Source of the DNA: an uncultured Acidobacteriota bacterium
GTDB lineage: Bacteria > Acidobacteriota > Polarisedimenticolia > J045
Length of the DNA stretch: 64,000 nucleotides
NCBI GenBank assembly: GCA_963702425.1
Contig: CAVPCQ010000032.1
Coordinates: forward strand, 64,001-128,000
Direction: 5' to 3'
Shown: positions 40,204 to 46,020 of the stretch, piece by piece
Position numbering within the stretch: the first letter of the stretch is position 1
Layout of the letters: each line of letters opens with the position of its first letter
The notes under the pieces: generated by a model
Seen by the model: the letters and a program-made list of their open reading frames with translations, nothing else
The model's database searches: none
Told to the model about the DNA's origin: nothing
Position numbers and translations under genes: made by a program

Positions 40204-41952
40204 ATGCAAACTCCCAAGGATGGTGGCAAGCCCAAGAATGGTGGAATGCCCGGCAGAAAAATCGAAGTGGGCTCCTTCCGCGGAAAGGAGGTGACGTTCC
40301 TCGCACGCCGGCTGGTGATCCAGCTGGCGGCGTCGGAGGATGAGAAGTTGCTCATGGAATCCGTGGCGACCCTGATGGCCAAGGCCAAGGGCGCACGCGT
40401 GATGCGCGGGCCGAGTGCCACAGGTCGGATCCTGGTCATGCTGCCGGAAGGCCAGAGCGTGATCGAATGGGCCGCACGCTTCTCCGACGAGCGCGCCGTC
40501 GCCTACGCCGAGCCGGACATGCTGGAGCGGCTCCAGATCGTGCCGAACGACACACTGTACTCGAGCCAGTGGAGTCCGGGGATGGTGAATGCGGAGCAAG
40601 CCTGGGACCTCGAGACCGGCAAGACCAATGTGATCATCGGGATCATCGACTCCGGGATCTCCATCACCGGCGGGGCACTGGACCATGACGACCTCAACAC
40701 GCCGGGGCGCTTCGTCCTGGGGACGGACTTCGTGGATGGGGGCACGCCTCGCGACCTGAACGGCCACGGCACACACGTGACGGGGATTGCGGCAGCGATG
40801 GGCGACAACGGCACTGGGATCGCGGGGATGAACTGGGGATCGCAAGTATACATCTGTCGGACGTTCGATGCGGGAGGGAACGGCAGCTCGGCGGACTTTG
40901 CCGACGCCGTCGAGGAGATCACGGATTTCGCCGTGGCCAACGGGCTGAAGGCAGTGATCAACTACAGCGGCGGCGGCGTGGACAACCAGACTAAACAAGA
41001 CGCCGCCACGTACGCGTCGAACAACGGGATGCTCCTGGTTGCGGCGACCGGCAACGACAACGGCGGACCGGTGATCTTCCCGGCCGCGTATTCGACCACG
41101 ATCACGGGAGTCATCGCGGTCGGATCGACGGATTCCAACGACACCGTCTCGGGATTCTCGAACGTTGGACCCGAGGTGACCGTGGTGGCGCCGGGCGGCG
41201 ACATCCTATCGACGACGCCAACCTACAACGTGACCCTCTCGGGCCCGCCGGCCAACCTCGCGCTCAACCACGGCAACCTGAGCGGAACTTCCATGGCGAC
41301 GCCCATGGTCACTGGGTTGGCGGCCTTGATGTGGAGCCGGCACCCCAGCCACACGAATCAGAAGGTCAAGCAGTGCCTGATCGACACGGCCGTCAAGCTG
41401 GGCTCGGGGAACTTCGACAACAGCTGGGGCTTCGGCCGAATCGACGCGTACGCCGCACTCAAGTGCGGAGACTGGATCATGCCCTCGAAGCTAATCCTCT
41501 GCAAGTCGAGGCTGGTCCTCTGCACGTCGAAGCTGAGCACTTGCAGGACGCAGCTGTCCGTCTGCAAGTCGAAGCTGACCATCTGCAGCTCGCAGCTGGT
41601 AATCTGCAAATCGCAGTTGACAGTCTGCAAGTCGCAACTGACGCTCTGCGGAAAGTCGCAGTTGGTTCTCTGCCCAACCAAGTCGTTCCTCGATGCCTGC
41701 CCGGTCAGGTCGGTCCTGGCGGCCTGCCCTTCAGCGGTGGACGCGTGCCCGTCGACGCCCGGAGGATGCGAGTTCGTCGACCCGAGAGAACTTCTGGTCG
41801 ACCCGCTCATCCGGATCGCGGGACTTGAGTACCGGCTTCAGGAGCTCAAGACGGAGCTGTGGTACGGTGCGGGCGCGGCCAAGGCGCCCGATGCCGGCGA
41901 CGACGACGGTTGGTTCGTCCTCGACGACGGTGGCAATATCCACCTCATCTAA
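40204..41952 (+). CDS. S8 subtilisin-like peptidase (propeptide + catalytic domain) fused to a Ser/Cys-repeat putative lanthipeptide precursor tail
   Basis: Propeptide ending YAEPD; triad IIDSG / NGHGTHVTG / SGTSMATP; oxyanion Asn AATGND; then 13 x (S/T)X4C. Alternative start at 40246. Confidence 0.9.
   Translation: MQTPKDGGKPKNGGMPGRKIEVGSFRGKEVTFLARRLVIQLAASEDEKLLMESVATLMAKAKGARVMRGPSATGRILVMLPEGQSVIEWAARFSDERAVAYAEPDMLERLQIVPNDTLYSSQWSPGMVNAEQAWDLETGKTNVIIGIIDSGISITGGALDHDDLNTPGRFVLGTDFVDGGTPRDLNGHGTHVTGIAAAMGDNGTGIAGMNWGSQVYICRTFDAGGNGSSADFADAVEEITDFAVANGLKAVINYSGGGVDNQTKQDAATYASNNGMLLVAATGNDNGGPVIFPAAYSTTITGVIAVGSTDSNDTVSGFSNVGPEVTVVAPGGDILSTTPTYNVTLSGPPANLALNHGNLSGTSMATPMVTGLAALMWSRHPSHTNQKVKQCLIDTAVKLGSGNFDNSWGFGRIDAYAALKCGDWIMPSKLILCKSRLVLCTSKLSTCRTQLSVCKSKLTICSSQLVICKSQLTVCKSQLTLCGKSQLVLCPTKSFLDACPVRSVLAACPSAVDACPSTPGGCEFVDPRELLVDPLIRIAGLEYRLQELKTELWYGAGAAKAPDAGDDDGWFVLDDGGNIHLI
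41485..41769 (+). repeat. 13 tandem coding repeats (21-27 nt) encoding (S/T)-X4-C
   Basis: Examples TCGAAGCTGACCATCTGCAGC / TCGCAGCTGGTAATCTGCAAA / TCGCAGTTGACAGTCTGCAAG. Confidence 0.95.
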
Positions 41953-41973
41953 GTCAAGCAGGAGGACTGTGGT

Positions 41974-43005
41974 GTGAGTGAACTGGGACTGGCCCGGCGG
42001 GCTGCGCGATTCGTGATCACACGTGGGTTGATCTCGCACGAGGAGGTCCATCGCTACGGGATCCGAGCCCGGGACCTATCCCAGTCCAACGGCGTTGCGC
42101 TGGTCGAGTCCGGCAACGGACGAGGCTTCGTGGCGAAGGATATGAGGCCGACGCGCTCGGGGGACCAGGGTTCCCCCGAGCGCGAACTCGGCCTCTACCG
42201 GGCCATCTCGGGCCGGAAGGAGCTCGAGGCCTTCACGCCGCGGTTCCATGGGTACGACGACGGGGAACACATCCTGCTCATCGAGGGCCTTTCGTCGTCT
42301 CGGCGCCTCGATCAGCTCGGCGGCGGGCGAAGCGTGCTGGATCCTGAACTAGCGGGTCGGGTCGGCGCGGCCTTGGGTCTGTGGCACCTGCGTGCGGCGG
42401 CGCTGGACGGTCTGGATCGAGCCGTGATCTGGTTCCTCGGCATCGACGGCGAGAACCGCCTGGCCGTACTCGATGCTGATGCGCGTCTGCGCGAGCTCAC
42501 CCTGAAGATCCTCTCCGACCCAGAGTTGAAGAAGTGCCTGGTGCGCGTGCGTGCCCACTGGACGGACGAGACGGTGATCCACGGCGATGTGCGCTTCGCC
42601 AACGTCATGGTCTGTCCCGCACCGCAAGTCGTTCGCTTCATCGACTGGGAGACCAGCGGGATGGGCGATCCGGCCTGGGACGTGGCGGGCGGCGTCCAGG
42701 AGTATCTGAGCGTAGGGATCGCGGGCGGACATCCGCTGGAGAGTTCGCCGGCCGGAGATCCGGTGGAGGCGTTCCTCAGGCGCTACCGGGAGACGTCTCG
42801 CAGCTCGATGCCGTGGTCGCGCTTCGCGCCCTTCGTCGCGTGCCGCCTGATGATGCGGGCGCTGCAGCTGACGTTGTGGGATGGGGACGCACGGGAGGCG
42901 ACCGAGCAGCACCTGAAACTGGCCGCAGAGATCGGCACAAGGACGGAAAGTCCGTTCGAGCGCGTTCCGCAGGACGACCCGGCACTCCAGTCCACGGACC
43001 AATGA
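41974..43005 (+). CDS. APH/phosphotransferase-family kinase (LanK-like)
   Basis: FVAK, IHGDVRFANVMV, FIDWE, GDPAWDVA. Confidence 0.85.
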   Translation: MSELGLARRAARFVITRGLISHEEVHRYGIRARDLSQSNGVALVESGNGRGFVAKDMRPTRSGDQGSPERELGLYRAISGRKELEAFTPRFHGYDDGEHILLIEGLSSSRRLDQLGGGRSVLDPELAGRVGAALGLWHLRAAALDGLDRAVIWFLGIDGENRLAVLDADARLRELTLKILSDPELKKCLVRVRAHWTDETVIHGDVRFANVMVCPAPQVVRFIDWETSGMGDPAWDVAGGVQEYLSVGIAGGHPLESSPAGDPVEAFLRRYRETSRSSMPWSRFAPFVACRLMMRALQLTLWDGDAREATEQHLKLAAEIGTRTESPFERVPQDDPALQSTDQ

Positions 43006-43937
43006 TCAGCGCCATGCACGGCGATCTCCTCGAAGCGGCTGAGTGGTTGGTCGACCAAACCCTACGCCACGAGGCAGCGAACGAGGGTCCTGACGAGCTG
43101 GCGCTCAGGCTCTACGATTGGTACCTGAATACGTCGCCGCTGCCCAAGCCCACGGGTCCACTGCTCCCCTATGAGCTCAACCTGCCGGCTGCCGTGCGCG
43201 GTGCACACCATGAAACGCCCCGCTTCGAGGGCGGATGGAAGGCGCAGACCGCTTCATCGTGGGGGCGGGTGGTGGCGAACAAGGGAGACGAGACCCGAGT
43301 GCTCGAGCGCAGCGAGTATACGGTTCCCGGCCGACGTGGGTTGCGCGCCCAACACGGCGACGCTCTCCTCGTCTCCCGCTGCTGGGACTGGGTCGACGAG
43401 GAGACCGGATTCTGGCACTACAGGCGCGGGACCTGGCCTCCCCCCGGAGCGGACCGCCTCGTCCGGATCTATTGGAACTGTGTGCCTGCCGAGGCTCCGC
43501 GCGTCATTGCGCAGGTGTCCCTGGTTCTGGGCGCCGCGGCCGATGTCCCGTTCATGGTGAAGACCCCCGCGCGATCCGATCACAACGGACGCGCGGACGC
43601 CGTCGTGAGCTACCTGGGACCCGATGGGTATTCGAGATTCGAGTGCGAGCTCCGAGCGACCGCGGAGTCGCTCGCTGTGTGCCTGCGGCCGCAGACTCCG
43701 CGAATGACGCATCGGCTGGCCCCCGGAGTAGCCCTCACCGAAGGCAAACTGGGCGGAGACAGCTTCGGCGATGTGCGTTGCCGACTCTTGGCCGATACGT
43801 TTTGCGAGGCAAGCGCCGAGGCTCGCCGCTCGGTGCCGCAGCTTGTGGAGAGGATCGGTGCAGACTTCCGAGCGACGGGCCTGGACCCCGCACGCCCATA
43901 CCTCGAGCCAGGGCCGGTTCGTGACTACGACGGTTGA
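43002..43937 (+). CDS. HopA1-like protein (LanY-like phospho-lyase)
   Basis: LVRIYWN, PFMVK, RADAVVSY, GDSFGDVRCRLLA, GLDPARPY; ATGA overlap with the kinase stop. Confidence 0.75.
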   Translation: MISAMHGDLLEAAEWLVDQTLRHEAANEGPDELALRLYDWYLNTSPLPKPTGPLLPYELNLPAAVRGAHHETPRFEGGWKAQTASSWGRVVANKGDETRVLERSEYTVPGRRGLRAQHGDALLVSRCWDWVDEETGFWHYRRGTWPPPGADRLVRIYWNCVPAEAPRVIAQVSLVLGAAADVPFMVKTPARSDHNGRADAVVSYLGPDGYSRFECELRATAESLAVCLRPQTPRMTHRLAPGVALTEGKLGGDSFGDVRCRLLADTFCEASAEARRSVPQLVERIGADFRATGLDPARPYLEPGPVRDYDG

Positions 43938-45408
43938 CTACCTGGCGCTCGCGGGCGGCATCGCGAATCGGCTGTGCGACGAGGCCATCCGCAGCCAGGG
44001 GCGCGCGACGTGGCTCGGCGACGAGAAGGAGAGTTTCGACGGAAGCTGGGAGGTCGTTTGCAAGACCGTCGACGGAGACCTGTACGGTGGCACGGCCGGA
44101 ATCGGCCTGTTCCTCGCCCGGATGGCCGCCGCGACGAAGGACCCTCGTTACCGCACCACAGCGCTCGAGGCCTTGGCCCACGCGACGGAGTGGACGCGGC
44201 GCACTCGATCCCTGGGCACGCTCTACGGCGGAGCGGCGGGCGTAGCAGCTGAGCTGGCGGAAGCCGGAAGGCTGCTCGATGAGCCGGGATTGACGGACGA
44301 GGCCTTTCGTGTCGCAGGCGAGAGCATCGACCACCCACCTCAGGGGGCGAACGACTTGATCTCCGGCCGGGCGGGGTCGATCGTCGCGCTTCTGCACCTC
44401 GCGCGGACGTTGCCCTTCGACGCCGCGTTGGAAGCAGCTCGCGAGCTCGGCGAGCAGATCGTGAAGGCCGCTGTGGGAACGCCATTCCCGGGCGCTGCCT
44501 GGCCATCGGACATCGGGCCGAACGAGCCTCCCCTGTGCGGACTCTCGCACGGTGCCTCGGGTATCGCCTGGGCCCTGGAGGAACTCGCGCTGATCACCGG
44601 AGAGCAACGCTACAGCCAGGTTGCTGCTTCCGCGGCCGCCTATGAACGGGCCTGGTACCAGCGGGAGGAGGGGAACTGGCCGGACCTCCGAGAGTTCACT
44701 CGCGCCAAGCTGGCGCGCGGCGAAGCCCCCGGCTTCCCGATGTTCTGGTGCCACGGTGCCGTCGGGATCGGTCTGGTGCGCCTGCGCCAATTCGAATTGA
44801 CCGGGGAGACGGTCTACGCCGTAGAGGCCGAAGCTGCCATGATGTCCGCCGAGAAACAGATCGCAGAGGTCTTCGAGGCACCGCGAGTCGACCTATCCCT
44901 GTGCCACGGTGTGGCTGGATTCGCTGAACTGTTCCTCGAGGGGGCTCGGGTCTTCGCACAACCGCTCTTGCGTGAGAAGGCGCTGTCCTGCGTCGACTTG
45001 GCGGCGCGCTGTGGGCAAGACGGGGCAGGGCCGTGGCCGTGCGGCATCCCCGACGGTGGCGAGAACCCCAGCCTCATGGTCGGGCTCGCGGGTATCGGGA
45101 TGATGTTCCTCAGAGCGGCCGATTCCAGCGTGCCTTCGGTGGGCCTGCCCTATACTCTACCGATCATGATTCCCCGATTGATCGTCCAGCTCAAAGTCAC
45201 CGAATCGCCGGCCGACCTGCAGGCTCGCGCAGCCGAGGTCGCCGCACTTCTGCCCGGCAGCCGCATAGAACGGATCTCTCGGCGCGGGCGCGTCCTCATT
45301 CGCCTACCCGCGGGTGCATCCGCAGAGTCTGCGGCACGATCGCTTTCCGGCCGCCAGGGAGTGGAGTACGCCGAACCCGACGCCGTGGACCACCAGACTG
45401 GCGAGTAG
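43921..45408 (+). CDS. LanC-like lanthionine cyclase with C-terminal subtilisin-propeptide-like domain
   Basis: LYGGTAGI, GLSHGASGI, WCHGAVG and SLCHGVAG (Zn ligands), LMVGLAGIG; about 80-aa tail ending VEYAEPD. Confidence 0.9.
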   Translation: MTTTVDYLALAGGIANRLCDEAIRSQGRATWLGDEKESFDGSWEVVCKTVDGDLYGGTAGIGLFLARMAAATKDPRYRTTALEALAHATEWTRRTRSLGTLYGGAAGVAAELAEAGRLLDEPGLTDEAFRVAGESIDHPPQGANDLISGRAGSIVALLHLARTLPFDAALEAARELGEQIVKAAVGTPFPGAAWPSDIGPNEPPLCGLSHGASGIAWALEELALITGEQRYSQVAASAAAYERAWYQREEGNWPDLREFTRAKLARGEAPGFPMFWCHGAVGIGLVRLRQFELTGETVYAVEAEAAMMSAEKQIAEVFEAPRVDLSLCHGVAGFAELFLEGARVFAQPLLREKALSCVDLAARCGQDGAGPWPCGIPDGGENPSLMVGLAGIGMMFLRAADSSVPSVGLPYTLPIMIPRLIVQLKVTESPADLQARAAEVAALLPGSRIERISRRGRVLIRLPAGASAESAARSLSGRQGVEYAEPDAVDHQTGE

Positions 45409-45468
45409 GGTTTCGAAGGCGTTGTTGGCTAGATGCATCAAAGAGGCAGGAGTGTGCCTGGCCACTAC

Positions 45469-46020
45469 CCCGTCCGCCTTGCCCTTCAACGAGTTGCGTT
45501 CCGATGCAGGAGATCCGGATCGCCATCATTCAGCCCGCAACCGTCATTCGCTGGCATCGCAAAGGTTTCAGACGGTACTGGCACTGGAAGTCGCGGCGCC
45601 ACGCTGGACGCCCGACCTCAACGGCCAATACCCGCGCTCTCGTCCACCTCATGGCGGCCGAGAATCCGTCGCGGGGCGCGCCGCGATCTCCTCGACCACG
45701 TCATCGTCCTCAACGAGAAGCACCTGCAGCGCCTTGTGGCCTGCTTCGCCTCGTACGGCCTCGACAACCGGACGCACTTGTCCCTGAAGAGGGATGCGCC
45801 CGCGATGCGAGCCGTGGAGTCGAGCCCGCATCCAGCCGCCGAGATCATCGCTCGACCTCGCCTCGGCGGGCTTCATCATCGCTACGCTTGGCGCCGCGCG
45901 GCTTGACGATTCCGCTCGACCCGTCCACCGCCGCGGCCTCGTCGTGGAGCGGCTGTGCCTTTGTGGAAGGCAGACCGTCGCCATCTCTGTCAACCGATGG
46001 GCATGACCGTCCCCGACACA
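45469..46020 (+). mobile_element. degenerate integrase-core IS remnant, copy 2 (inverted relative to 27190-28235)
   Basis: IIQPATVIRWHRKGF, HVIVLNEKHLQRL, RLGGLHHRY; shared flank CCGTCCGC.TTGCCCTTCAA.GAGTTGCGTTCC. Confidence 0.75.

What the first reader, a model, noticed from the sequence alone, without database searches (positions are those of the whole stretch)
45166..45408. LanC cyclase carries a copy of the partner protease's propeptide
Seen: the LanC tail RLIVQLKVTESPADLQARAAEVAALLPGSRIER-ISRRGRVLIRLPAGASAESAARSLSGRQGVEYAEPD (45175-45381) aligns with the S8 propeptide RLVIQLAASEDEKLLMESVATLMAKAKGARVMRGPSATGRILVMLPEGQSVIEWAARFSDERAVAYAEPD (40309-40518), 27 identities in 70 columns by hand with one gap. 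Established: subtilisin propeptides (I9-like fold) bind the catalytic domain tightly as chaperone and inhibitor. Inference: the cyclase uses a propeptide mimic to dock on the protease domain, so the folded protease acts as the 'leader', and/or to keep it inhibited until all rings are made. The residues after YAEPD differ (AVDHQTGE-stop versus MLERLQ), consistent with a non-cleaved inhibitor. This would be an unusual substrate-recognition and timing mechanism for a RiPP.
Basis: partly seen in the sequence, partly recalled or inferred. Interest (0 to 1): 0.9.

Follow-up and report, generated by a model that had tools for sequence, protein, structure and literature searches.

The report
Lanthionine cyclase fused to protease prodomain
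A ring-forming enzyme (LanC) ends in an old, conserved copy of the safety-cap domain of the protease encoded three genes upstream, which most likely lets it clamp onto, and silence, that protease while it modifies the protease's cysteine-rich tail.

Summary
The last 80 codons of the LanC gene (45166-45405) are in frame with the cyclase. They match Pfam PF22148 (subtilase N-terminal prodomain; 38.5 bits, cut-off 21) and the S8 protease's own prodomain (27/73 identical, E 7e-12).

It is not an artefact, a relic or unique:
- 38 of the 120 best LanC homologues carry the same tail.
- 10 of 80 genome loci have the fusion. Two more encode the domain as a separate, translationally coupled gene.
- Independent metagenome contigs bridge the junction.

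The tail is an old paralogue, not a recent copy.

A model puts it on the S8 catalytic domain in the classical prodomain pose (ipSAE 0.90, best control 0.27). Such complexes are solved, so this shows likeness only.

A second prodomain copy accompanies 25 of 26 assessable protease-led operons, usually as a free small gene. Inhibition is therefore probably its general role, and tethering LanC a clade-specific addition.

This scan had noted the protease-with-tail operon and free prodomain copies on other DNA.

The parts
40204..41952 (+). S8 (subtilisin-family) protease gene, 582 aa, first gene of the operon
   Evidence: Pfam Peptidase_S8 at residues 141-411, 165.3 bits. Asp149, His188 and Ser363 motifs located and invariant in 44 homologues.
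40309..40536 (+). The S8's own N-terminal prodomain (residues 36-111), paralogue of the LanC tail
   Evidence: BLASTP to the tail E 7e-12. Local prodomain HMM 86.0 bits. Pfam PF22148 gives only 17.2 bits here, below the cut-off of 21, but many close S8 homologues carry PF22148 precomputed.
40537..41463 (+). S8 catalytic domain (residues 112-420), modelled binding partner of the tail
   Evidence: complex prediction interface residues 149-150, 186-189, 220-234, 255-270, 281-284 and 359-366. Coordinates.
41485..41769 (+). Thirteen Ser/Thr-x4-Cys units (residues 428-522), the likely lanthionine core carried by the protease
   Evidence: A regex count of 13 units starting at residues 428, 435... 517. 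Related proteases in other loci carry similar tails.
41974..43005 (+). APH-fold kinase (LanK-like)
   Evidence: Pfam APH 59.6 bits. NCBIfam LxmK 47.7 bits, far below its cut-off of 315.
43002..43937 (+). HopA1-family lyase (LanY-like); its ATG overlaps the kinase stop (ATGA)
   Evidence: Pfam HopA1 73.7 bits. Start codon located.
43921..45144 (+). LanC cyclase domain (residues 1-408 of the 495-aa protein P0007)
   Evidence: Pfam LANC_like 175.7 bits. WCHG (276-279), LCHG (327-330) and GLSHG (207-211) are invariant in 38 homologues. The fold matches LicM2, CuvL, LanCL1/2 and NisC.
45145..45174 (+). Linker between cyclase and tail (LPYTLPIMIP)
   Evidence: No regular secondary structure between H389-400 and E419 in the AlphaFold2 model. 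Variable in the alignment.
45175..45378 (+). Prodomain-fold core of the tail (residues 419-486, beta-alpha-beta-beta-alpha-beta)
   Evidence: AlphaFold2 elements E419-424, H430-442, E448-452, E457-461, H468-475, E481-486, pLDDT mostly 83-94. PF22148 match. The best two PDB fold hits are the subtilisin BPN' and E prosegments.
45379..45408 (+). C-terminal strand DAVDHQTGE plus stop, modelled in the protease's substrate cleft
   Evidence: Disordered in the free model, pLDDT below 50 for residues 490-495. Residues 485-495 all touch S8 in the complex model. D487 is invariant and D490 is kept in at least 90% of homologues.

Best explanation
The C-terminal 80 residues of LanC are a subtilase prodomain (PF22148 type). 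It is an old paralogue of the prodomain at the N-terminus of the operon's S8 protease, and it ends about where a processed prodomain would end.

Proposed mechanism (inferred):
- It binds the folded S8 catalytic domain in the classical prodomain pose. Its beta-sheet sits on the two surface helices and its acidic C-terminal strand lies in the substrate cleft next to Asp149, His188 and Ser363.
- This blocks the protease, as free prodomains and prodomain-like inhibitors do.
- Because the domain is covalently joined to LanC, it also holds the cyclase on the protein whose Ser/Thr-x4-Cys tail is to be cyclised.

Shown here: family membership, conservation of the fusion, an interface of conserved residues in a model, and the split forms.

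Inferred: actual binding, inhibition, and any effect on ring formation or its timing.
For: 1. Domain identity. PF22148 at 38.5 bits against a cut-off of 21. Beta-alpha-beta-beta-alpha-beta fold at pLDDT 83-94. The top two PDB fold hits are subtilisin prosegments 1spb_P and 1scj_B, TM 0.57-0.65 but E only 4-6e-3.

2. Conservation.
- 38 of the 120 best-listed LanC homologues (464-530 aa) carry the tail, with R451, G456, R457, E485 and D487 invariant.
- 10 of 80 genome loci have the fusion: a Planctomycetota MAG, an Actinomycetes MAG, Acrocarpospora x4, Sinosporangium x2, Nonomuraea and a Solirubrobacteraceae MAG.
- Wherever the contig reaches far enough (8 of those 10 loci, plus the window), an S8 51-56% identical to the window's leads the operon.

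3. Rosetta-stone pattern. In L015 and L033 the same domain is a separate gene whose GTG overlaps the LanC stop (GTGA). On the tree these group with the fused tails (84/94).

4. Complex model of S8 112-425 with tail 408-495.
- ipSAE 0.90 in 3 of 3 runs; best of 3 controls 0.27.
- That mark was reached by 58 of 80 solved complexes and 2 of 110 mismatched pairs. These counts hold only roughly, because my own alignments were used.
- The runs agree in at least 98% of contacts, and the partner's pLDDT is at least 82.
- Contacts include the catalytic triad region and tail residues 485-495.

5. The invariant tail residues E485 and D487, and D490, touch S8 residues 221-230 and 255-263, many of which are invariant in 44 S8 homologues.

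6. Where the copies end.
- Free small copies end exactly 6 residues after YAExD in 43 of the 79 that have the motif.
- Fused tails end 6-9 residues after it in 26 of 38.
- The S8s have 8 residues between YAExD and the PND motif of the mature enzyme in 40 of 44.

7. Established knowledge. Prodomain C-terminal tails bind the subtilase cleft in a product-like manner, and free prodomains are tight, slow-binding inhibitors (PMC10580911, discussion passages). A free-standing prodomain-like protein, SUB1-ProM, potently inhibits its cognate subtilase (PMC6993865, abstract).
Against: - Subtilisin-prosegment complexes are solved structures, so the high complex score may come from memory. It shows likeness, not that this copy binds.
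- The S8 keeps its own prodomain, which by homology uses the same site. LanC could therefore dock only after that one has left, which sits awkwardly with 'inhibited from the start'.
- Three other protease clades run the same kinase-lyase-LanC chemistry with a tail-less LanC and a free prodomain gene. Tethering is therefore not needed for modification in general.
- The AlphaFold2 model of the whole protein has pTM 0.91, which suggests the tail packs against LanC. I could not get coordinates to see whether its protease-binding face is free.
- The sequence-only search of the PDB gave no significant prosegment hit (best E 0.5-0.7).
- No experiment of any kind bears on this.
Confidence: 0.6

Rival explanations
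1. Dedicated protease inhibitor only. The extra prodomain is the bacterial counterpart of free-standing prodomain-like inhibitors. It keeps a cytoplasmic, signal-less subtilase latent. Its fusion to LanC in this clade is a neutral gene fusion of neighbours and has no role in substrate recruitment.
For: - A second prodomain copy occurs in 25 of 26 assessable protease-led operons. It is free-standing in 16 of those 25: L015, 9 of clade 2, 5 of clade 3, and L064.
- 82 of the best 150 cluster representatives matching the tail profile are small proteins (56-123 aa) that end at the prodomain's end.
- Earlier notes of this scan report free prodomain copies beside subtilases that have no lanthionine enzymes (unchecked leads).
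- SUB1-ProM is a precedent.
Against: - The fusion has been kept across at least two phyla and 38 sequence clusters, with the linker length conserved.
- In the split loci the gene stays translationally coupled to LanC rather than to the protease. This points to stoichiometric co-production with LanC.
Confidence: 0.25
2. Trans-acting folding chaperone. The extra prodomain helps the S8 catalytic domain to fold or refold, for example after its own prodomain is lost. It is not primarily an inhibitor or a tether.
For: Prodomains are intramolecular chaperones in mesophilic subtilases (PMC10580911, abstract seen in the listing). The tail keeps the same conserved interface residues as the S8's own prodomain.
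Against: The S8 already has an intact prodomain, as conserved as the tails (S-S 42.9% identity, T-T 42.5%), so a second foldase seems redundant. Nothing in the data separates chaperone from inhibitor.
Confidence: 0.08
3. The tail binds something other than the S8 catalytic domain, such as LanC itself, the kinase or lyase, or the S8's C-terminal follower. It would then act as a regulatory or assembly module that only looks like a prodomain.
For: pTM of 0.91 for the whole LanC-plus-tail model hints at a fixed packing of the tail on LanC. The ferredoxin-like fold is common, and many non-prodomain folds appear among the PDB hits at similar E-values.
Against: - The residues conserved in the tail are the same as those conserved in true S8 prodomains, including the YAExDxxD strand that fits the protease cleft.
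- The domain occurs only in loci led by an S8 of the matching type: HMM hits in 21 of 80 loci, all with such a protease or cut off before it.
Confidence: 0.05
4. Artefact or relic: an assembly error, or the stump of a second S8 gene cut off by the repeat element that starts about 60 nt downstream.
For: A multi-copy, internally deleted repeat begins near 45468. ATG 45166 could in principle start a separate ORF.
Against: - 38 homologues end at the same place.
- Contigs from two other public studies bridge the junction: X4 record 23 (45060-45255) with no differences, and X2 record 9 (44800-45502) with substitutions only inside the gene.
- No S8 catalytic remnant lies downstream.
Confidence: 0.02

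Closest known systems
Subtilase N-terminal prodomains (Pfam PF22148 Fervidolysin_NPro-like; same fold as the subtilisin BPN'/E prosegments, PDB 1spb_P and 1scj_B)
   Same: Sequence family, beta-alpha-beta-beta-alpha-beta fold, the conserved YAExD motif followed by a short strand modelled in the active-site cleft, and an end near the processing junction.
   Different: It sits at the C-terminus of a LanC cyclase rather than the N-terminus of a protease. It is never joined to a catalytic domain, so it needs no autoprocessing. It is a second copy in addition to the protease's own prodomain.
Free-standing prodomain-like subtilase inhibitors: Plasmodium SUB1-ProM (PMC6993865, abstract read), fungal YIB2 and POIA1 (named in PMC10580911, discussion passage)
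   Same: A prodomain paralogue encoded apart from the protease, next to it in the genome, and expected to inhibit the cognate enzyme. The split forms in L015 and L033 and the small genes in other clades are direct bacterial counterparts.
   Different: Those are independent small proteins of eukaryotes. Here the domain is fused to an enzyme that is expected to modify the protease itself. Inhibition has not been measured for any of the bacterial copies.
Class Vb lanthipeptide synthetases: split LanK kinase, LanY HopA1-type lyase and a dedicated LanC (described in PMC11186320, introduction passages, which cite work I could not read)
   Same: Three separate enzymes of the same folds in one operon.
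   Different: - No short precursor gene. The 8 Cys-rich small ORFs between 38000 and 47500 all overlap larger genes or the repeat.
- The probable substrate is the tail of a 582-aa protease.
- LanC carries a prodomain.
- The kinase scores far below the LxmK cut-off (47.7 against 315).
Leader-peptide recognition in RiPP enzymes (leader bound by the enzyme or an RRE domain; general knowledge, recalled)
   Same: A non-catalytic module on or beside the modifying enzyme that would hold the substrate through a part that is not itself modified.
   Different: The recognised element would be a folded 310-residue enzyme domain bound through a protease-inhibitor interface, not a short linear leader. The fold is not an RRE winged helix.

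Membership tests
Subtilase prodomain, Pfam PF22148 (Fervidolysin_NPro-like) | Sequence match above Pfam's gathering score | tested here: met
   33.7 bits in the whole ORF and 38.5 bits for the tail alone, against a cut-off of 21.
Subtilase prodomain, Pfam PF22148 (Fervidolysin_NPro-like) | Beta-alpha-beta-beta-alpha-beta fold like solved prosegments | tested here: met
   The topology appears in two AlphaFold2 models. The best two PDB fold hits are 1spb_P and 1scj_B, TM 0.57-0.65, but with E 3.8e-3 and 5.9e-3, not below 1e-3.
Subtilase prodomain, Pfam PF22148 (Fervidolysin_NPro-like) | Lies N-terminal to an S8 catalytic domain in one polypeptide and is removed by autoprocessing | tested here: not met
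   It follows a LanC domain and is followed by a stop codon. No S8 remnant lies downstream.
Subtilase prodomain, Pfam PF22148 (Fervidolysin_NPro-like) | Binds the catalytic domain with its C-terminal strand in the substrate cleft | tested here: inconclusive
   The model scores ipSAE 0.90 against 0.27 for the best control, with the cleft contacts expected. Like complexes are solved, so this shows likeness only.
Free-standing prodomain-like inhibitors (SUB1-ProM, YIB2, POIA1 type) | Prodomain paralogue not attached to a protease | tested here: met
   It groups apart from the S8's own prodomains on the tree.
Free-standing prodomain-like inhibitors (SUB1-ProM, YIB2, POIA1 type) | Independent small protein | tested here: not met
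   Fused to LanC in the window and in 10 of 80 loci. It is met only by the split genes of L015 and L033.
Free-standing prodomain-like inhibitors (SUB1-ProM, YIB2, POIA1 type) | Measured inhibition of the cognate subtilase | not testable with these tools
   Needs enzyme kinetics.
LanC lanthionine cyclase (Pfam PF05147) | Family match and alpha,alpha-toroid fold | tested here: met
   175.7 bits. Foldseek matches to LicM2, CuvL, LanCL1/2, MadC and NisC at E 4e-14 to 4e-8.
LanC lanthionine cyclase (Pfam PF05147) | Cys-Cys-His zinc ligands and the catalytic His (their roles are recalled from NisC, not taken from a call) | tested here: met
   C277, H278, C328, H329 and H210 are invariant in 38 sequences. 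The motifs were located.
Class Vb lanthipeptide system (LanK + LanY + LanC + short precursor) | Split kinase and HopA1-type lyase beside a dedicated LanC | tested here: met
   APH 59.6 bits, HopA1 73.7 bits, LANC_like 175.7 bits. However, the NCBIfam LxmK equivalog scores 47.7 against a cut-off of 315.
Class Vb lanthipeptide system (LanK + LanY + LanC + short precursor) | Short precursor peptide with leader and Cys/Ser/Thr core | tested here: not met
   No free-standing candidate between 38000 and 47500. All 8 Cys-rich small ORFs overlap larger genes or the repeat. The only regular Ser/Thr-x4-Cys array is in the S8 tail.

The most novel reading that the evidence does not exclude
The folded protease domain serves as the 'leader'. 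LanC finds its protein-sized substrate through a prodomain-protease lock-and-key contact instead of a leader peptide. The same contact keeps the protease off until cyclisation is over, so that substrate recognition and protease latency are one interaction. In clades where the prodomain is a free gene, it would act as an adaptor between protease and cyclase.
Probability: 0.3. Interest if true: 0.85.

Novelty: new variant of a known kind. Interest (0 to 1): 0.65.

Why it matters
- It gives an independent, physical-interaction argument that the S8 protease itself is the cyclase's substrate. That supports the idea of a protein-sized lanthipeptide, raised earlier in this scan for other genomes.
- It suggests a way of recruiting a RiPP enzyme that I did not find described: docking on a folded domain through an inhibitor-type interface. 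This is directly testable with two recombinant proteins and could be reused to aim a cyclase at chosen proteins.
- It adds a bacterial, enzyme-fused member to the prodomain-like subtilase inhibitors. The characterised examples I saw are eukaryotic.
- It shows that a second prodomain copy is a near-constant companion of protease-led lanthionine operons (25 of 26 assessable).

Tried and rejected
- **Truncated second S8 gene or assembly artefact:** rejected.
- **Recent duplication of the partner's propeptide:** rejected. Cognate pairs are no closer than non-cognate pairs, and tails form a separate group.
- **Known anti-phage system:** PADLOC gave only a generic subtilase match (81.4 bits) and weak chance-level hits, so it was not pursued.
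- **Sequence-only PDB search with the tail profile:** nothing significant. NapD scored E 0.07 and the prosegments E 0.5-0.7.
- **Pfam on the small ORFs of protease clade 3 (L009, L065, L028), on L015 and on L019:** no family. Their kinship to the neighbouring protease's N-terminus rests on tblastn (E 1e-9 to 3e-17) or on my own HMM.
- **Tail-only word search among proteins of 44-140 aa:** one hit, P0246. The profile search without a word index was far more sensitive.
- **Pfam on the two frames of the downstream repeat:** no family. My reading of it as a transposase remnant is from memory of similar sequences only.
- **Expression:** no RNA holder listed by the look-up of sequencing runs, so nothing can be said.
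- **Relatives:** the LanC-plus-tail protein was not found in 4 same-genus genomes. Only tail-less LanCs turned up, in 2 of the 40 other genomes searched.
- **Literature:** searches found no paper describing a LanC fused to a protease prodomain or a protease carrying a lanthionine tail. The library lacks most subscription journals. The class Vb founding paper was seen only as a citation inside PMC11186320.
- **Coordinates of the structure models** were not available to scripts. I could not check whether the tail's binding face is free in the full-length model, nor measure the distance from the LanC zinc site to the S8 tail.
- **No baseline was computed** for how often ordinary S8 genes have a second prodomain copy nearby.
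Full report
**What is there**

Four co-oriented, tightly packed genes lie on the + strand:
- an S8 protease (40204-41952, 582 aa);
- an APH-fold kinase (41974-43005);
- a HopA1-family lyase (43002-43937, its ATG overlapping the kinase stop);
- a LanC cyclase (GTG 43921 to stop 45408, 495 aa as called in the database).

The protease has three parts:
- its own N-terminal prodomain (residues 36-111);
- a catalytic domain with the Asp149, His188 and Ser363 motifs;
- a tail of 13 Ser/Thr-x4-Cys units (residues 428-522).

The finding concerns the last 80 residues of LanC.

**Check of the observation**

- The tail is in frame with LanC, with no stop between them.
- BLASTP against the S8 prodomain gives 27/73 identities with one gap, E 7e-12.
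- 2000 shuffles never came near the real Smith-Waterman score: 107 against a maximum of 51, z = 15.8.
- Pfam places the tail in PF22148, the fervidolysin-type subtilase prodomain, at 38.5 bits against a cut-off of 21.
- AlphaFold2 folds the whole protein with mean pLDDT 93.5. The tail forms a beta-alpha-beta-beta-alpha-beta domain, and its last six residues are disordered.
- Folded alone, its best two PDB matches are the subtilisin BPN' and subtilisin E prosegments, at modest E-values of 4-6e-3.

**Not an artefact, a relic or a one-off**

- Of the 120 best-listed LanC homologues, 38 (464-530 aa) cover the tail. A fragment (P0027) does too. The remaining 81 stop after the cyclase domain.
- In the alignment of the 38, R451, G456, R457, E485 and D487 are invariant and D490 is nearly so.
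- A scan of one genome per species returned 80 loci. Ten have the fusion: a Planctomycetota MAG 63% identical to the window, an Actinomycetes MAG, four Acrocarpospora, two Sinosporangium, a Nonomuraea and a Solirubrobacteraceae MAG.
- Public metagenome contigs from other studies bridge the LanC/tail junction. One has no differences (X4, 45060-45255). One comes from a roughly 98% identical strain, with substitutions only inside the gene (X2, 44800-45502).
- No S8 catalytic remnant follows the tail.
- A multi-copy, internally deleted repeat starts about 60 nt after the stop. Because homologues end at the same residue, it has not truncated the gene.

**How old is the copy?**

For 18 LanC/S8 pairs, the tail and the cognate S8 prodomain are 32.5% identical. 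Non-cognate pairs are 31.9% identical (n=306). I paired 17 of the 18 by equal contig length in the search tables, which is an inference. Tails among themselves are 42.5% identical, and S8 prodomains among themselves 42.9%. On a maximum-likelihood tree the tails form one group (support 84/94) apart from the S8 prodomains. The tree has few columns and many unresolved forks. So this is an old paralogue kept under selection, not a recent copy of the partner's propeptide.

**Split forms and the wider pattern**

In two Actinomycetota loci (L015, L033) LanC stops before the tail. The prodomain is then a separate gene whose GTG overlaps the LanC stop (GTGA), behind a purine-rich stretch. These two group with the fused tails.

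I then asked whether other protease-led operons have something similar. Twenty-six loci, including the window, have a protease gene with its N-terminus on the contig.

| Protease clade | Identity to window S8 | Second prodomain copy | Format |
|---|---|---|---|
| 1 (window's clade) | 51-56% | 10 of 10 | 9 fused to LanC, 1 separate |
| 2 (longer prodomain) | 32-35% | 9 of 9 (two weak: E 0.0046 and 0.0009) | small gene on the opposite strand beside the operon |
| 3 (different prodomain type) | 24-28% | 5 of 5 | separate ORF 34-37% identical to that protease's own N-terminus |
| 4 (large proteases) | 28-29% | 1 of 2 | separate ORF |

- That totals 25 of 26. These loci are kin, so the number of independent events is nearer four.
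- My prodomain HMM hit 21 of 80 loci and none of the 59 others.
- Three of the free copies pass Pfam's PF22148 cut-off (L041, L049, L033).
- A profile search of 1.84 billion cluster representatives found 342 matches at E <= 0.001. I sorted the best 150:
  - 82 are small proteins of 56-123 aa that end at the prodomain's end (some may be gene fragments);
  - 13 are LanC fusions;
  - 20 are ordinary prodomain-S8 proteins;
  - 35 are other or unclear.

**Where the copies end**

- Free small copies stop exactly six residues after the YAExD motif in 43 of the 79 that have the motif.
- Fused tails stop 6-9 residues after it in 26 of 38. The mode is 8, as in the window.
- The S8s have eight residues between YAExD and the PND motif of the mature enzyme in 40 of 44.

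The extra copies are therefore cut off by their stop codons at or within about two residues of the prodomain/mature junction, like an already processed prodomain. The exact cleavage site of these S8s is not known. The statement that the BPN' prosegment also ends six residues after the equivalent motif is recalled. It is consistent with the non-significant profile alignment.

**Binding model**

A complex of S8 residues 112-425 (alignment of 44) with LanC residues 408-495 (alignment of 38) scored ipSAE 0.90 in all three runs.
- The best of three controls scored 0.27.
- That mark was reached by 58 of 80 solved complexes and 2 of 110 mismatched pairs. The counts hold only roughly, because my own alignments were used.
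- The runs agree in at least 98% of contacts, and the partner's pLDDT is at least 82.
- The interface covers S8 residues 149-150, 186-189, 220-234, 255-270, 281-284 and 359-366, and tail residues 419-423, 451-459 and 483-495. This is the classical pose, with the C-terminal strand in the cleft beside the triad.
- The conserved tail residues E485, D487 and D490 touch S8 residues 221-230 and 255-263, many of which are invariant.

Subtilisin-prosegment complexes are textbook solved structures. This pass therefore shows that the pair looks like them, not that this copy binds.

**Most likely mechanism**

Prodomain C-terminal tails bind the subtilase cleft in a product-like way, and free prodomains are tight, slow-binding inhibitors (PMC10580911, discussion passages). 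A free-standing prodomain-like protein encoded next to subtilase genes, SUB1-ProM, is a potent and selective inhibitor of its cognate enzyme (PMC6993865, abstract).

I therefore read the extra prodomain as a dedicated inhibitor or latency partner of a signal-less, presumably cytoplasmic protease. In this clade its fusion to LanC, or translational coupling to it, additionally tethers the cyclase to the protein whose tail it must cyclise.

The fusion is also independent evidence that the protease is LanC's substrate. The general inhibitor role is favoured by the free-standing forms. The tether role is favoured by the long conservation of the fusion and by the coupling to LanC rather than to the protease. 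Nothing here tests timing ('inhibited until all rings are made').

A real difficulty is that the protease's own prodomain should occupy the same site first.

**Comparison with what is known**

- The domain meets the sequence and fold criteria of a subtilase prodomain. It fails the positional one, because it is not N-terminal to a protease and is not autoprocessed.
- It works like the free-standing prodomain-type inhibitors but is not a free small protein.
- The enzymes resemble class Vb lanthipeptide synthetases: split LanK and LanY plus a dedicated LanC (PMC11186320, introduction passages). There is, however, no short precursor gene, and the kinase is far below the LxmK model's cut-off.
- Seven full-text searches found no paper on a LanC fused to a protease prodomain. 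Databases already auto-label some homologues with both Pfam domains.
- Earlier notes of this scan had recorded the protease-with-tail operon in other genomes, and free prodomain copies beside ordinary subtilases. My look-ups found none that records the LanC fusion.

**Verdict**

The feature is real and conserved. Its identity as a prodomain paralogue is nearly certain. Binding to the S8 catalytic domain is likely, at about 0.6-0.7. The specific roles (inhibitor, tether, timer) are inferred.

It is a new variant of a known kind: a prodomain-like inhibitor module fused to a RiPP cyclase.

Noticed in passing
window 45468-45910: A repeat begins about 60 nt after the LanC stop. Three segments of it (1-65, 61-226 and 217-451 of the query) recur at 65 places in the genome, and elsewhere they are separated by extra DNA. 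The copy here is therefore an internally deleted derivative. Translations resemble the N- and C-terminal ends of a transposase (recalled), but Pfam finds no family.
   Followed up: partly
L015:11368-11685 and L033:1572-1850: In two Actinomycetota genomes the LanC tail is a separate gene whose GTG overlaps the LanC stop codon (GTGA), behind a GGAGG-like stretch. This is a natural split form of the fusion.
   Followed up: yes
L018, L019, L041, L047, L049, L050, L059, L069, L077 (for example L041:6488-6703 on the minus strand): Operons led by a different S8 clade have a tail-less LanC plus a free prodomain gene of about 75 aa on the opposite strand. It often ends YAEPDxxQ(S/T)GF, that is, six residues after the motif with an aromatic last residue.
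   Followed up: partly
L009:11235-11570(-), L023:371-625, L028:5807-6139, L065:11364-11609, L074:2737-2988, L064:3546-3809: Proteases of two further clades, with a prodomain type that Pfam does not recognise, also have a separate ORF 30-37% identical to their own N-terminal region right beside the kinase-lyase-LanC operon.
   Followed up: partly
L010:7286-7723 and L020:7334-7522: In some loci the gene ahead of the kinase is not hit by the S8 catalytic domain. It matches only the Cys-repeat part of the window's S8 tail, so non-protease proteins may carry the same kind of core.
   Followed up: no
proteins P0062, P0114, P0125 (765-773 aa): Homologues in which the HopA1 lyase and LanC are fused into one protein (precomputed PF17914 plus PF05147), without a prodomain tail.
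   Followed up: no
window 40204-45408 against relatives G001-G040: The operon is patchy. LanC-plus-tail was not found in 4 same-genus genomes (81-96% complete). Only tail-less LanCs were found, in 2 of the 40 other genomes searched. The closest genome locus is a Planctomycetota MAG at 63% identity, which fits horizontal transfer.
   Followed up: partly
window 41770-41949: After the last Cys the S8 has a 60-residue Cys-free segment ending in an acidic, aromatic stretch. Similar acidic and aromatic ends close the protease tails in all the other clades printed, so it may be a shared recognition or export element.
   Followed up: no
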